From assembly GCF_003018255.1 (NCBI RefSeq), contig NZ_CP027440.1: DNA of 64,000 bases, one strand, 5' to 3'. The notes under the pieces were generated by a model that saw only the letters and a list, made by a program, of their open reading frames with translations, was not told the DNA's origin and ran no database searches. This document shows, piece by piece, positions 21,668 through 56,748 of the stretch; position 1 is the first letter of the stretch; each line of letters opens with the position of its first letter. This DNA is from Escherichia coli. Lineage in GTDB: Bacteria; Pseudomonadota; Gammaproteobacteria; Enterobacterales; Enterobacteriaceae. A program made the position numbers and the translations under genes.

Positions 21668-21861
21668 TTTTGCCACCTTTTATCATTGCCCCTATGTGTA
21701 TAGTACGGGTTAAGAAAATCCGCAATAATACTCATTCTGAAGATGGATAAGGGCAAGTTGCTGTTTGATGTTTTTTTCTCAAACCGGTTAAAAAACTTGA
21801 TGTACGTCAAAAAATGACGCATATTTGCGCGCGTTTTATTCATCTGGCTGGACGCCCGTAC

Positions 21862-52315: not shown

Positions 52316-52587
52316 ATTGTTCCTCACATGCACACATTGGTAATGAAAAAAAGACAAAACAGGAGGTAAGGCGCAATAGCCAGTTATTAGAATTAAGGAT
52401 GAATCAGGTGAAGTGCTGATTAGAAGAATAGATAAGAAAGCGTAACTGCGGGGGCAGAATGTGGATTAAACAGACAGATATGTGTTACTAAATGTAACTA
52501 AAATGGCTTTCTGGTATTTGAAATTTATTTTTTAATATTGTCAGAATTTATCTGATTAACTGCCGGGCCGTAGACCCGACAATTATT

Positions 52588-53469
52588 TTAGCCACGACGT
52601 GTCGCCAGCCAGCAGAGCAGGGAACCGCCGCAGACCATTAGCGCGCCTTGCCAGAACGAGAACGACAGCGGGGCGCTGAGCAGCACGGCTGCAAGCGCTG
52701 AGGAAAGGACGGGCGTAAAATACGAACCTACCGCCATAATGGTGACGTTGCCATGTAATATACCGACGTTCCATGCAGCATAAGCAAATCCTAAGGTAAA
52801 TGCCGCAGAGATGAGTTTAATCATGACTGGCGTGCTAAATACCATTTCTGGTTGTGGCGTGAGAAAATAGTAAACCCACAGACTTGCTCCCGTTAGCAGG
52901 ACAAAAACGGTAATTCCGTTAAATCCGCGTGCGTATTTATTCGTTACTGTGCAGTAGGCTGCCCAGATAAACGCACCAATAAACGACAGGAAATAACTCA
53001 ATGGGCTGGTGGTGATATTATTGATGATTTCATCATAATGTAACCCATTGTCACCACCTAACACCCAGCAGACGCCGACCAGGGCTAATAATAATCCTGG
53101 TACAATCAGCCAGTTGGTTTTCTGACCATTAAACAGAATGGCAAAGAGAATTGTCAGGCTGGGCCATAGATAGTTCACCATCCCCACTTCAATCGCCTGA
53201 TGACGGGTCGCCGCATACCCTAAGGAAAGCGCCAGACAGATTTCATAGCTGACGAATAACAGACTCCCGGCGAGTAAATAGCCTTTCGGGATCTGCCGAA
53301 TACGCGGAAATCCAACCGTGAAGATTAACAGCAGCCCGCTTAATGAATAGATAGCAGCTGCGCCGCCGACCGGGCCGAGCCCCTCACTGACACCGCGAAT
53401 CAATCCTACCATCGTGCTCCACAGGACGATCGCTATTAGCCCTATGAGCGTTGCTTTTTGTCGTGTCAT
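52588..53469 (-). CDS. yddG: Aromatic amino acid exporter (DMT/EamA family)
   Basis: 293-aa hydrophobic ORF; divergent from fdnG. Confidence 0.85.
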   Translation of the reverse strand: MTRQKATLIGLIAIVLWSTMVGLIRGVSEGLGPVGGAAAIYSLSGLLLIFTVGFPRIRQIPKGYLLAGSLLFVSYEICLALSLGYAATRHQAIEVGMVNYLWPSLTILFAILFNGQKTNWLIVPGLLLALVGVCWVLGGDNGLHYDEIINNITTSPLSYFLSFIGAFIWAAYCTVTNKYARGFNGITVFVLLTGASLWVYYFLTPQPEMVFSTPVMIKLISAAFTLGFAYAAWNVGILHGNVTIMAVGSYFTPVLSSALAAVLLSAPLSFSFWQGALMVCGGSLLCWLATRRG

Positions 53470-53559
53470 GCTCGCTGTTTTGTCTCTCTTGCCGTTAAAA
53501 ATTAAGCTGAATTTTATAGCATTTTTTTAACTGGCCTGTCAGGCAGTGGTGCGTTTTTC

Positions 53560-53636
53560 TACCGCTATTGAGGTAGGTCAATTTGCGCAGGCGGATTATT
53601 TTGTGGCAAACACGTGTTCTTTTTGATTTCGCGCAA
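53560..53636 (+). promoter_or_regulatory. fdnG anaerobic promoter region: NarL 7-2-7 heptamer pair (taccgct-at-tgaggta, 53560-53575) and FNR-like site (ttgatttcgcgcaa, about 53623-53636)
   Basis: Motifs read from sequence, spaced about 62 bp apart as expected for NarL around -105 and FNR around -42; fdnG is a known FNR/NarL target. Confidence 0.45.
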
Positions 53637-53700
53637 AAAGATTCAGAATTTTACTGTTAGTTTCCTCGCGCAGTAATACCCCTGAAAAAAGAGGAAAGCA

Positions 53701-56700
53701 ATGGACGTCAGTCGCAGACAATTTTTTAAAATCTGCGCGGGCGGTATGGCTGGAACAACGGTAGCGGCATTGGGCTTTGCCCCGAAGCAAGCACTGGCTC
53801 AGGCGCGAAACTACAAATTATTACGCGCGAAAGAGATCCGTAACACCTGCACATACTGTTCCGTAGGTTGCGGGCTATTGATGTATAGCCTGGGTGATGG
53901 CGCGAAAAACGCCAGAGAAGCGATTTATCACATTGAAGGTGACCCGGATCATCCGGTAAGCCGTGGTGCGCTGTGCCCGAAAGGGGCCGGTTTGCTGGAT
54001 TACGTCAACAGCGAAAACCGTCTGCGCTACCCGGAATATCGTGCGCCAGGTTCTGACAAATGGCAGCGCATTAGCTGGGAAGAAGCATTCTCCCGTATTG
54101 CGAAGCTGATGAAAGCTGACCGTGACGCTAACTTTATTGAAAAGAACGAGCAGGGCGTAACGGTAAACCGTTGGCTTTCTACCGGTATGCTGTGTGCCTC
54201 CGGTGCCAGCAACGAAACCGGGATGCTGACTCAAAAATTTGCCCGCTCCCTCGGGATGCTGGCAGTAGACAACCAGGCGCGCGTCTGACACGGACCAACG
54301 GTAGCAAGTCTTGCTCCAACATTTGGTCGCGGTGCGATGACCAACCACTGGGTGGATATCAAAAACGCTAACGTCGTAATGGTGATGGGCGGTAACGCTG
54401 CTGAAGCGCATCCCGTCGGTTTCCGCTGGGCGATGGAAGCGAAAAACAACAACGATGCAACCTTGATCGTTGTCGATCCCCGTTTTACGCGTACCGCTTC
54501 TGTAGCGGATATTTACGCACCTATTCGTTCCGGTACGGACATTACGTTCCTGTCTGGCGTTTTGCGCTACCTGATCGAAAACAACAAAATCAATGCCGAA
54601 TACGTTAAGCATTACACCAATGCCAGCCTGCTGGTGCGTGATGATTTTGCTTTCGAAGACGGTCTGTTCAGCGGCTACGACGCTGAAAAACGGCAATACG
54701 ATAAATCGTCCTGGAACTATCAGTTCGATGAAAACGGCTATGCGAAACGCGATGAAACACTGACTCATCCGCGCTGTGTGTGGAACCTGCTGAAAGCGCA
54801 CGTTTCCCGCTACACGCCGGACGTTGTTGAAAACATCTGCGGTACGCCAAAAGCCGACTTCCTGAAAGTGTGTGAAGTGCTGGCCTCCACCAGCGCACCG
54901 GATCGCACAACCACCTTCCTGTACGCGCTGGGCTGGACGCAGCACACCGTGGGTGCGCAGAACATCCGTACTATGGCGATGATCCAGTTGCTGCTCGGTA
55001 ACATGGGTATGGCCGGTGGCGGCGTGAACGCATTGCGTGGTCACTCCAACATTCAGGGCCTGACCGACTTAGGTCTGCTCTCAACCAGCCTGCCGGGTTA
55101 TCTGACGCTGCCGTCAGAAAAACAGGTTGATTTGCAGTCGTATCTGGAAGCGAATACGCCGAAAGCGACGCTGGCTGATCAGGTGAACTACTGGAGCAAC
55201 TATCCGAAGTTCTTCGTTAGCCTGATGAAATCTTTCTACGGCGATGCCGCGCAAAAAGAGAACAACTGGGGCTACGACTGGCTGCCGAAGTGGGACCAGA
55301 CCTACGACGTCATCAAGTATTTCAACATGATGGACGAAGGCAAAGTCACCGGTTATTTCTGCCAGGGCTTTAACCCGGTTGCGTCCTTCCCGGACAAAAA
55401 CAAAGTGGTGAGCTGCCTGAGCAAGCTGAAGTACATGGTGGTTATCGATCCGCTGGTGACTGAAACCTCTACCTTCTGGCAGAACCACGGCGAGTCGAAC
55501 GATGTCGATCCGGCGTCCATTCAGACTGAAGTATTCCGTCTGCCTTCGACCTGCTTTGCTGAAGAAGATGGTTCTATTGCTAACTCCGGTCGCTGGTTGC
55601 AGTGGCACTGGAAAGGTCAGGACGCGCCGGGCGAAGCACGTAACGACGGCGAAATTCTGGCGGGTATCTACCATCATCTGCGCGAGCTGTACCAGGCCGA
55701 GGGTGGTAAAGGCGTAGAACCGCTGATGAAGATGAGCTGGAACTACAAGCAGCCGCACGAACCGCAATCTGACGAAGTGGCGAAAGAGAACAACGGCTAT
55801 GCGCTGGAAGATCTCTATGACGCTAATGGCGTGCTGATTGCGAAGAAAGGTCAGTTGCTGAGTAGCTTTGCGCATCTGCGTGATGATGGTACAACCGCAT
55901 CTTCTTGCTGGATCTACACCGGTAGCTGGACAGAGCAGGGCAACCAGATGGCTAACCGCGATAACTCCGACCCGTCCGGTCTGGGGAATACGCTGGGATG
56001 GGCCTGGGCGTGGCCGCTCAACCGTCGCGTGCTGTACAACCGTGCTTCGGCGGATATCAACGGTAAACCGTGGGATCCGAAACGGATGCTGATCCAGTGG
56101 AACGGCAGCAAGTGGACGGGTAACGATATTCCGGACTTCGGCAATGCCGCACCGGGTACGCCAACCGGGCCGTTTATCATGCAGCCGGAAGGGATGGGAC
56201 GCCTGTTTGCCATCAACAAAATGGCGGAAGGTCCGTTCCCGGAACACTACGAGCCAATCGAAACGCCGCTGGGCACTAACCCGCTGCATCCGAACGTGGT
56301 GTCTAACCCGGTTGTTCGTCTGTATGAACAAGACGCGCTGCGGATGGGTAAAAAAGAGCAGTTCCCGTATGTGGGTACGACCTATCGTCTGACCGAGCAC
56401 TTCCACACCTGGACCAAGCACGCATTGCTCAACGCAATTGCTCAGCCGGAACAGTTTGTGGAAATCAGCGAAACGCTGGCGGCGGCGAAAGGCATTGCCA
56501 ATGGCGATCGTGTCACTGTCTCCAGCAAGCGTGGCTTTATCCGCGCGGTGGCTGTGGTAACGCGCCGTCTGAAACCGCTGAATGTAAACGGTCAGCAGGT
56601 TGAAACGGTGGGTATTCCAATCCACTGGGGCTTTGAGGGTGTCGCGCGTAAAGGTTATATCGCTAACACTCTGACGCCGAATGTCGGTGATGCAAACTCG

Positions 56701-56748
56701 CAAACGCCGGAATATAAAGCGTTCTTAGTCAACATCGAGAAGGCGTAA
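53701..56748 (+). CDS. fdnG: Formate dehydrogenase-N alpha subunit, selenoprotein (in-frame UGA = selenocysteine at 54286-54288), Tat-exported
   Basis: ORF-track ORFs 53701..54288 and 54337..56748 are in the same frame and separated only by TGA; total 1015 aa; Tat signal MDVSRRQFFK; recognised as FdnG. Confidence 0.9.
54289..54330 (+). other. Putative SECIS element directing selenocysteine insertion at the fdnG UGA
   Basis: Located immediately 3' of the in-frame TGA as in bacterial selenoprotein mRNAs; contains short inverted repeat gcaag-tc-ttgc; structure not folded. Confidence 0.45.

What the first reader, a model, noticed from the sequence alone, without database searches (positions are those of the whole stretch)
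53560..53636. NarL 7-2-7 and FNR motifs upstream of fdnG
A paired heptamer taccgct-at-tgaggta and a TTGAT-N4-half-site FNR-like motif lie about 62 bp apart upstream of fdnG, matching the known nitrate/anaerobic control of this operon. The spacing fits NarL near -105 and FNR near -42.
Basis: partly seen in the sequence, partly recalled or inferred. Interest (0 to 1): 0.2.

Follow-up and report, generated by a model that had tools for sequence, protein, structure and literature searches.

The report
Known fdnG nitrate/anaerobic promoter control sites
The two motifs are real and are the long-known NarL and FNR binding sites that switch on the E. coli formate dehydrogenase-N operon when oxygen is absent and nitrate is present, so the finding is correct but ordinary.

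Summary
The window is E. coli chromosome, and 53560-53636 lies in the 231-bp yddG/fdnG intergenic region. TACCGCT-AT-TGAGGTA (53560-53575) matches the NarL 7-2-7 consensus at 12 of 14 positions. TTGATTTCGCGCAA (53623-53636) matches the FNR consensus at 8 of 10. Their centres are 62 bp apart.

K-12 MG1655 is identical at both motifs. The published positions (FNR -42.5; NarL heptamers -109 and -100) all map onto the motif centres with a single +1 at 53672.

Neither motif is remarkable by count in one 64-kb window. Across 80 Enterobacteriaceae fdnG loci, however, the FNR site is present in all. A TA-N5-NN-N5-TA inverted repeat sits exactly 62 bp upstream of it in 71 of the 81 sequences, although its sequence varies (63 distinct 16-mers) and its flanks are unconserved.

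Verdict: observation confirmed, interpretation supported, already known, low interest.

- A stronger FNR-like site (53568-53581, -97.5) overlaps the downstream NarL heptamer, occurs only in Escherichia, and lies nearest the published FNR ChIP-seq summit.
- Weaker NarL heptamers are published at -124 and -77.
- A conserved extended -10 element, TGtTAGTTT, lies at 53655-53663.

The parts
53560..53575 (.). NarL/NarP 7-2-7 site TACCGCT-AT-TGAGGTA, centre -104.5 (heptamers -109 and -100)
   Evidence: Sequence. It has 2 mismatches to TACYYMTNNAKRRGTA. The published heptamer positions -109/-100 fit +1 = 53672. fdnG is listed as having a 7-2-7 site. The repeat is conserved at a fixed 62-bp offset from the FNR site in 71 of 81 sequences, with information content peaking at the outer TA dinucleotides and at C6/G11.
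53623..53636 (.). Proximal FNR site TTGAT-TTCG-CGCAA, centre -42.5 (class II position, overlaps the -35 region)
   Evidence: 2 mismatches. PWM rank 8 of 63,987. Present in all 81 fdnG upstream regions, TTGAT/CGCAA in 76 and CTCAA in 5. Published position -42.5.
53568..53581 (.). Second FNR-like site TTGAG-GTAG-GTCAA, centre -97.5, overlapping the downstream NarL heptamer
   Evidence: 2 mismatches, TTGA/TCAA cores intact. PWM rank 2 in the window. It is the only site of this intergenic region in Myers 2013 Table S6 (score 14.43). The ChIP-seq summit 1545309 corresponds to window 53585, which is 10.5 bp from this centre. It is found only in the Escherichia-type loci L001-L005.
53592..53598 (-). 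Weak NarL heptamer at the published -77 position (TAATCCG on the minus strand, 5/7), inside conserved block 53594-53606
   Evidence: Position with +1 = 53672. The block is conserved in the anchored alignment, with consensus GACTATTAAGGGGGC in other genera. It reads as a degenerate 7-2-7 with 4 mismatches, centred 29 bp from the FNR site.
53545..53551 (-). Weak NarL heptamer at the published -124 position (CACCACT on the minus strand, 5/7)
   Evidence: Position with +1 = 53672; sequence. It is not conserved across genera, with information content near 0.
53655..53663 (+). Extended -10 element TG-t-TAGTTT; no -35 match
   Evidence: Sequence. TGTTAGTTT is identical in 49 of 81 sequences, and the others differ at 1-2 bases at a fixed distance from the FNR site. 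The consensus promoter scan finds no complete sigma-70 promoter, as expected for an activator-dependent promoter.
53672..53672 (+). Inferred transcription start (+1, A), 29 nt before the ATG
   Evidence: This is the only coordinate that puts -109, -100 and -42.5 on the three motif centres. It is inferred and was not measured here.
53701..56748 (+). fdnG (formate dehydrogenase-N alpha subunit), with in-frame TGA (Sec196) at 54286-54288 and SECIS at 54283-54341
   Evidence: ORFs; annotation; Rfam SECIS_3 at 84.3 bits.
52588..53469 (-). Divergent neighbour yddG (amino acid exporter)
   Evidence: It is present upstream of fdnG in 73 of 80 loci.

Best explanation
This is the control region of the E. 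coli fdnGHI (formate dehydrogenase-N) operon, a promoter that depends on two activators.

Anaerobic signal. An FNR dimer with its [4Fe-4S] cluster binds TTGATTTCGCGCAA, centred at -42.5. There it replaces the missing -35 element and recruits RNA polymerase to the extended -10 element TGtTAGTTT (class II activation).

Nitrate signal. NarX/NarQ phosphorylate NarL. A NarL-P dimer then binds the inverted heptamer pair TACCGCT-AT-TGAGGTA, centred at -104.5, helped by weaker heptamers at -124 and -77. It raises FNR-dependent initiation many-fold. NarP can bind the same 7-2-7 site.

What is shown here: the motifs, their coordinates, their fit to the published positions, and strong conservation of both sites and of their exact 62-bp spacing across Enterobacteriaceae.

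What is taken from the literature: FNR and NarL dependence of the operon, the site positions, and in vivo FNR occupancy of the region.

What is inferred: how NarL acts from -104.5. I infer that it acts together with FNR-bound RNA polymerase in a way that depends strictly on spacing. No contact with the polymerase was tested. The invariant 62-bp distance is the only evidence.
For: - Identity of the locus.
- Motifs and coordinates.
- K-12 is identical at both motifs.
- Published positions FNR -42.5 and NarL -77/-100/-109/-124 (PMC3349551) fit one +1 at 53672.
- fdnG is listed as a reported 7-2-7 site, and NarP binds only 7-2-7 sites (PMC2718512).
- FNR and NarL-P together give maximal fdnGHI expression (PMC11841067).
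- There is an FNR ChIP peak at yddG/fdnG, with expression needing nitrate/NarL (PMC3688515).
- Phylogenetic footprint: the FNR site is in 81/81 sequences, the 7-2-7 lies at 62 bp in 71/81 with 63 distinct 16-mers and unconserved flanks, and the -10 element is conserved.
- The 7-2-7 is retained at 62 bp in L062, L074 and L075, where yddG is not the neighbour.
Against: - The primary papers (Li & Stewart 1992; Li, Kustu & Stewart 1994; Darwin, Li & Stewart 1996; Wang & Gunsalus 2003) are not held in the library. Footprints, mutant data and the mapped TSS are therefore known here only through secondary citation.
- The proximal FNR site is weak by PWM. It falls below the genome-wide threshold of Myers 2013 (Table S6 lists only the -97.5 site).
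- The ChIP-seq summit (window 53585) is 44.5 bp from the proximal site but 10.5 bp from the -97.5 site.
- With +1 at 53672 the -10 hexamer lies at -14 to -9, two bases further upstream than canonical.
- Four distant genera carry the 7-2-7 at 39-42 bp instead of 62.
Confidence: 0.95

Rival explanations
1. The FNR site that matters in vivo is the upstream one (53568-53581, -97.5), and the proximal TTGAT motif is incidental.
For: The upstream site has the better PWM score (15.7 against 10.5; rank 2 against 8). It is the only site in this region passing the genome-wide threshold of Myers 2013. The ChIP-seq summit lies 10.5 bp from it.
Against: It is present only in Escherichia (L001-L005). The proximal site is present in all 81 sequences at a fixed distance from the conserved -10 element. 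A site at -97.5 cannot replace a -35 element. The published FNR position is -42.5. The ChIP summit alone cannot separate sites 55 bp apart. From memory, unverified here: Li & Stewart 1992 found the -42.5 site essential.
Confidence: 0.03
2. The motifs mainly control the divergent gene yddG rather than fdnG.
For: The region is shared. The 7-2-7 centre is about 98 bp from the yddG start codon, and yddG is the neighbour in 73 of 80 loci.
Against: The motifs keep a fixed distance to the fdnG -10 element. They are retained in L062, L074 and L075, where no yddG lies upstream. The literature assigns the regulation to fdnG. Myers 2013 file 9 assigns the peak to fdnG.
Confidence: 0.02
3. The matches are chance occurrences of short degenerate motifs.
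For: In the single window the 7-2-7 pattern is no more frequent than expected (4 against 2.81). FNR-like 2-mismatch sites occur about once per kb.
Against: Position-specific conservation across about 80 species with divergent flanks. Exact agreement with three published coordinates. An FNR ChIP peak in the region.
Confidence: 0.005

Closest known systems
E. coli K-12 fdnG operon control region (Li & Stewart 1992; Li, Kustu & Stewart 1994; Darwin, Li & Stewart 1996)
   Same: It is the same locus. K-12 is identical at both motifs and at the -10 element, with 3 SNPs between the motifs. Published positions -109/-100/-42.5 map exactly.
   Different: Nothing of substance. This strain lacks yddJKL further upstream (coordinate arithmetic), which does not touch the promoter.
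narG operon control region (FNR at about -41.5, NarL far upstream, IHF in between)
   Same: Co-activation by FNR at the class II position plus upstream NarL-P, with the same physiological pattern.
   Different: narG lacks any 7-2-7 site and needs NarL regions at -89 and -195. fdnG has a 7-2-7 at -104.5. I found no report of IHF involvement at fdnG in the papers read.
ogt and yeaR promoters (NarL alone; 7-2-7 at -44.5/-77.5 and about -43)
   Same: They use 7-2-7 NarL dimer sites. ogt has two sites 33 bp apart, the same distance as between the fdnG -104.5 site and the degenerate conserved block centred at -71.5.
   Different: Those promoters are FNR-independent and NarL sits next to the polymerase. 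At fdnG, FNR holds the -42.5 position and NarL acts from further upstream.
nirB promoter (FNR -41.5, NarL/NarP 7-2-7 at -69.5)
   Same: An FNR class II site plus one upstream 7-2-7 bound by NarL or NarP.
   Different: At nir, NarL works by displacing IHF/Fis repression from -69.5. Whether anti-repression plays any part at fdnG is not known from the material available here.

Membership tests
NarL/NarP 7-2-7 binding site | Two heptamers matching TACYYMT in inverted orientation with a 2-bp spacer | tested here: met
   TACCGCT-AT-TGAGGTA matches 12 of 14 specified positions, with one mismatch in each heptamer.
NarL/NarP 7-2-7 binding site | Lies in the control region of a nitrate-regulated operon at the published position | tested here: met
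   It lies upstream of fdnG. The heptamer centres fall at -109 and -100 with +1 = 53672, as published. fdnG is named as a 7-2-7 gene.
NarL/NarP 7-2-7 binding site | Purifying selection on the inverted repeat and on its position | tested here: met
   It lies at exactly 62 bp from the FNR site in 71 of 81 sequences. 69 of 81 have 3 mismatches or fewer, against a 0.1% background rate. Information content peaks at TA...C/G...TA and the flanks are near 0.
NarL/NarP 7-2-7 binding site | Bound by phosphorylated NarL (footprint) and required for nitrate induction (mutants) | not testable with these tools
   Reported by Li et al. 1994 and Darwin et al. 1996. These papers are cited but are not readable here.
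FNR class II activator site | Match to TTGAT-N4-ATCAA | tested here: met
   8 of 10 positions. PWM rank 8 of 63,987 in the window. The score of 10.5 is below the range of the 62 training sites (11.7-21.1), so it is a weak site. The CGCAA arm also occurs in the listed hcp site TTGATTTAGCGCAA.
FNR class II activator site | Centre about 41.5 bp upstream of +1, overlapping the -35 region, with a -10 element at the proper distance | tested here: met
   The centre at 53629.5 is 28.5 bp before the first base of the conserved -10 hexamer at 53658 (canonical 29.5). The published position is -42.5. No -35 match is present. The TSS itself was not measured here.
FNR class II activator site | FNR occupancy in vivo at this particular site | tested here: inconclusive
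   A ChIP-seq/ChIP-chip peak exists in the yddG/fdnG region. Its summit (window 53585) lies between the two FNR-like sites and is nearer the -97.5 one.
FNR class II activator site | Conservation in orthologous promoters | tested here: met
   81 of 81 sequences have exactly one TTGAT-N4-C[GT]CAA. Columns 53623-29 and 53632-36 are nearly invariant. Babujee 2012 also report it conserved in Dickeya/Pectobacterium.

The most novel reading that the evidence does not exclude
The Escherichia-specific FNR-like site at -97.5 (53568-53581) shares 8 bp with the NarL 7-2-7. It may be genuinely occupied by FNR in vivo when nitrate is absent; the ChIP-seq summit lies 10.5 bp away in cells grown without nitrate. 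In that case FNR and NarL-P would compete for, or exchange at, this position. That would be a recently evolved extra layer that sharpens the nitrate switch in Escherichia only.
Probability: 0.1. Interest if true: 0.3.

Novelty: already known. Interest (0 to 1): 0.07.

Why it matters
It matters little as a discovery, because this promoter has been a textbook model for dual FNR/NarL control since the early 1990s. The check does show that the first-stage reader can recover real regulatory sites with correct positions from raw sequence.

The comparative analysis adds one modest point. The 62-bp spacing between the NarL 7-2-7 and the FNR site is kept to the base pair across most Enterobacteriaceae genera while the heptamer sequences drift. 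This argues that NarL activation from -104.5 depends strictly on spacing.

Tried and rejected
- I tried to read the primary papers and none is held: PMC180993, PMC3068693, PMC206306, PMC151514. Positions were taken from a secondary source instead.
- I looked for a genome-wide TSS for fdnG in the supplements of Kim et al. 2012. Only an orthologue table mentions b1474.
- I searched the MotifAdjuster supplements for fdnG and found nothing.
- A phrase search for 'fdnG promoter' plus NarL gave no papers.
- The consensus promoter/terminator scan found nothing in 53400-53760. This fits an activator-dependent promoter but is not informative by itself.
- A free MAFFT alignment of the 240-nt upstream regions was gap-rich (496 columns) and blurred the 7-2-7. 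I replaced it with an ungapped alignment anchored on the FNR site.
- I considered ModE or IHF for the conserved block 53594-53606. No convincing consensus match was visible, so it is left as a probable weak NarL site.

Full report
**What is there.** The window is E. coli chromosome. A 601-base query around the finding matches 5,413 of 5,426 complete E. coli genomes and is annotated yddG / fdnG. yddG occupies 52588-53469 on the minus strand. fdnG starts at 53701 on the plus strand, with an in-frame TGA at 54286-54288 and an Rfam SECIS_3 hit at 54283-54341.

The sequence reads TACCGCT (53560-66), AT, TGAGGTA (53569-75). Further downstream it reads TTGAT-TTCG-CGCAA (53623-36).

**Is it more than chance?** In the single window, only partly.
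- The 7-2-7 consensus with up to two mismatches has 4 hits against 2.81 expected.
- FNR-like sites with up to two mismatches occur about once per kb, 64 against 36.5 expected.
- A PWM built from 62 ChIP-supported FNR sites in Myers et al. 2013 Table S6 ranks the proximal site 8th of 63,987 window positions. It ranks a second site at 53568-53581 2nd.
- Two of the eight best sites in 64 kb therefore fall in this 231-bp spacer.

The decisive test is comparative. A scan of one genome per species returned 80 fdnG loci, all 88-100% identical over the first 195 residues. All start MDVS or MNVS; from memory, FdoG starts MQVS, so these look like fdnG rather than fdoG. Several results follow.
- Every upstream region has exactly one TTGAT-N4-[CA][GT]CAA. 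It reads CGCAA in 76 and CTCAA in 5.
- In an ungapped alignment anchored on that site, information content is near zero in the flanks. It peaks at the outer TA dinucleotides and at C6/G11 of a TA-N5-NN-N5-TA inverted repeat occupying exactly the E. coli 7-2-7 columns.
- The best 7-2-7 match within 150 nt lies at exactly 62 bp in 71 of 81 sequences, 61 bp in 3, 39 bp in 3 and 42 bp in 1.
- At offset 62, 69 of 81 have three mismatches or fewer, against a background rate of 0.1% per position. There are 63 distinct 16-mers at that position.
- The extended -10 element TGtTAGTTT (53655-63) is conserved at a fixed distance.

**Agreement with the literature.** K-12 MG1655 is identical to the window at both motifs and at the -10 element, with three SNPs in between.
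- Babujee et al. 2012 (PMC3349551), citing Darwin et al. 1996, place the FNR site at -42.5 and NarL heptamers at -77, -100, -109 and -124.
- One +1 at 53672 (an A, 29 nt before the ATG) puts -109 on 53563, -100 on 53572 and -42.5 on 53629.5. These are the three motif centres.
- MotifAdjuster (PMC2718512) names fdnG as one of four genes with a reported 7-2-7 site. It also notes that NarP binds only such sites.
- A 2025 review (PMC11841067) summarises that FNR and NarL-P together give maximal fdnGHI expression.
- Myers et al. 2013 (PMC3688515) found an FNR ChIP peak at yddG/fdnG. They place fdnG among operons that bind FNR but need nitrate/NarL for activation.

The primary papers could not be read here.

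**Mechanism.** FNR at -42.5 overlaps the absent -35 element; one search finds no complete sigma-70 promoter. It acts as a class II activator with the extended -10 element. A NarL-P dimer on the 7-2-7 at -104.5 supplies the nitrate signal, and NarP can occupy the same site. The motifs, positions and conservation are shown here. The dependence on FNR and NarL is taken from the literature. That NarL acts in a strictly spacing-dependent way is my inference from the invariant 62 bp, and the contact it makes was not tested.

- *A second FNR-like site.* TTGAGGTAGGTCAA (53568-81, centre -97.5) overlaps the downstream NarL heptamer and has intact TTGA/TCAA cores. It is the only site of this region that passes the genome-wide threshold of Myers 2013 (score 14.43). 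The ChIP-seq summit (1545309, equal to window 53585) is 10.5 bp from it and 44.5 bp from the proximal site. It occurs only in the Escherichia-type loci L001-L005. It is therefore either fortuitous or a recent addition. From memory, unverified here, Li & Stewart 1992 noted this sequence and found the -42.5 site to be the essential one.
- *The -77 heptamer.* It sits in a conserved block, 53594-53606, with consensus GACTATTAAGGGGGC elsewhere. The block reads as a degenerate 7-2-7 centred at -71.5, 33 bp from -104.5. That is the same distance as between the two NarL sites of the ogt promoter.
- *The -124 heptamer.* It is a weak match and is not conserved.

**Rivals.**
- The idea that the -97.5 site is the working FNR site is contradicted by its narrow distribution and by promoter geometry.
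- Control of yddG rather than fdnG is unlikely. The motifs keep register with the fdnG -10 element, and they persist where yddG is not the neighbour (L062, L074, L075).
- Chance is excluded by the comparative data.

**Verdict.** The feature is already known and of low interest.

Noticed in passing
window 53568-53581: FNR-like site TTGAGGTAGGTCAA at -97.5 overlaps the downstream NarL heptamer. It is the second-best FNR PWM hit in the whole window and the only site of this region in Myers 2013 Table S6. It is nearest the ChIP-seq summit and is restricted to Escherichia among 80 species.
   Followed up: partly
window 53594-53606: Conserved block between the 7-2-7 and the FNR site (E. coli GATTATTTTGTGG; other genera GACTATTAAGGGGGC). 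It covers the published -77 NarL heptamer. It reads as a degenerate 7-2-7 centred at -71.5, 33 bp from the -104.5 site, the same spacing as the two NarL sites of ogt.
   Followed up: partly
L076, L078, L079, L080 (about 40 bp upstream of the FNR site in each): In Enterobacteriaceae LSJC7, Tenebrionibacter, Cedecea and Buttiauxella the good 7-2-7 match lies 39-42 bp from the FNR site instead of 62 bp. These loci also lack yddG upstream. This looks like an alternative promoter architecture in the most distant genera.
   Followed up: partly
L006-L012, L014, L015, L018, L019, L021, L022, L030, L032: Citrobacter and Salmonella loci have the FNR site 126-135 nt from the ATG, against 74-82 nt in most others. 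The extra roughly 50-56 bp lies in the leader, and the promoter module itself is unchanged.
   Followed up: no
window 54283-54341: Rfam SECIS_3 hit (84.3 bits) starting at the in-frame TGA (54286-54288) that encodes selenocysteine 196 of FdnG.
   Followed up: no
window about 52358-52587 and about 58340: Strain differences. Coordinate arithmetic against Myers 2013 Table S6 indicates about 1.95 kb less between narU and yddG than in MG1655 (from memory, the yddJKL genes lie there). The window also lacks the IS200C insertion that the closest-matching strain JNE23-011 carries after fdnI.
   Followed up: partly
window 21797-21810: TTGATGTACGTCAA is the best FNR PWM hit in the window (18.0 bits). It is probably the yncL/ydcX site listed, with one base different, in Myers 2013 Table S6 as ChIP-positive.
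   Followed up: no
window 53513-53530: TTTATAGCATTTTTTTAA is conserved in the free alignment. On the minus strand it reads as a TATAAA -10-like element about 45 nt upstream of the yddG start, so it is a possible yddG promoter.
   Followed up: no
window 53566: Polymorphism at position 7 of the upstream heptamer: TACCGCT here and in K-12, TACCGCC in E. coli E69 (L001) and E. albertii (L002). This column is also the least conserved heptamer position across genera.
   Followed up: partly
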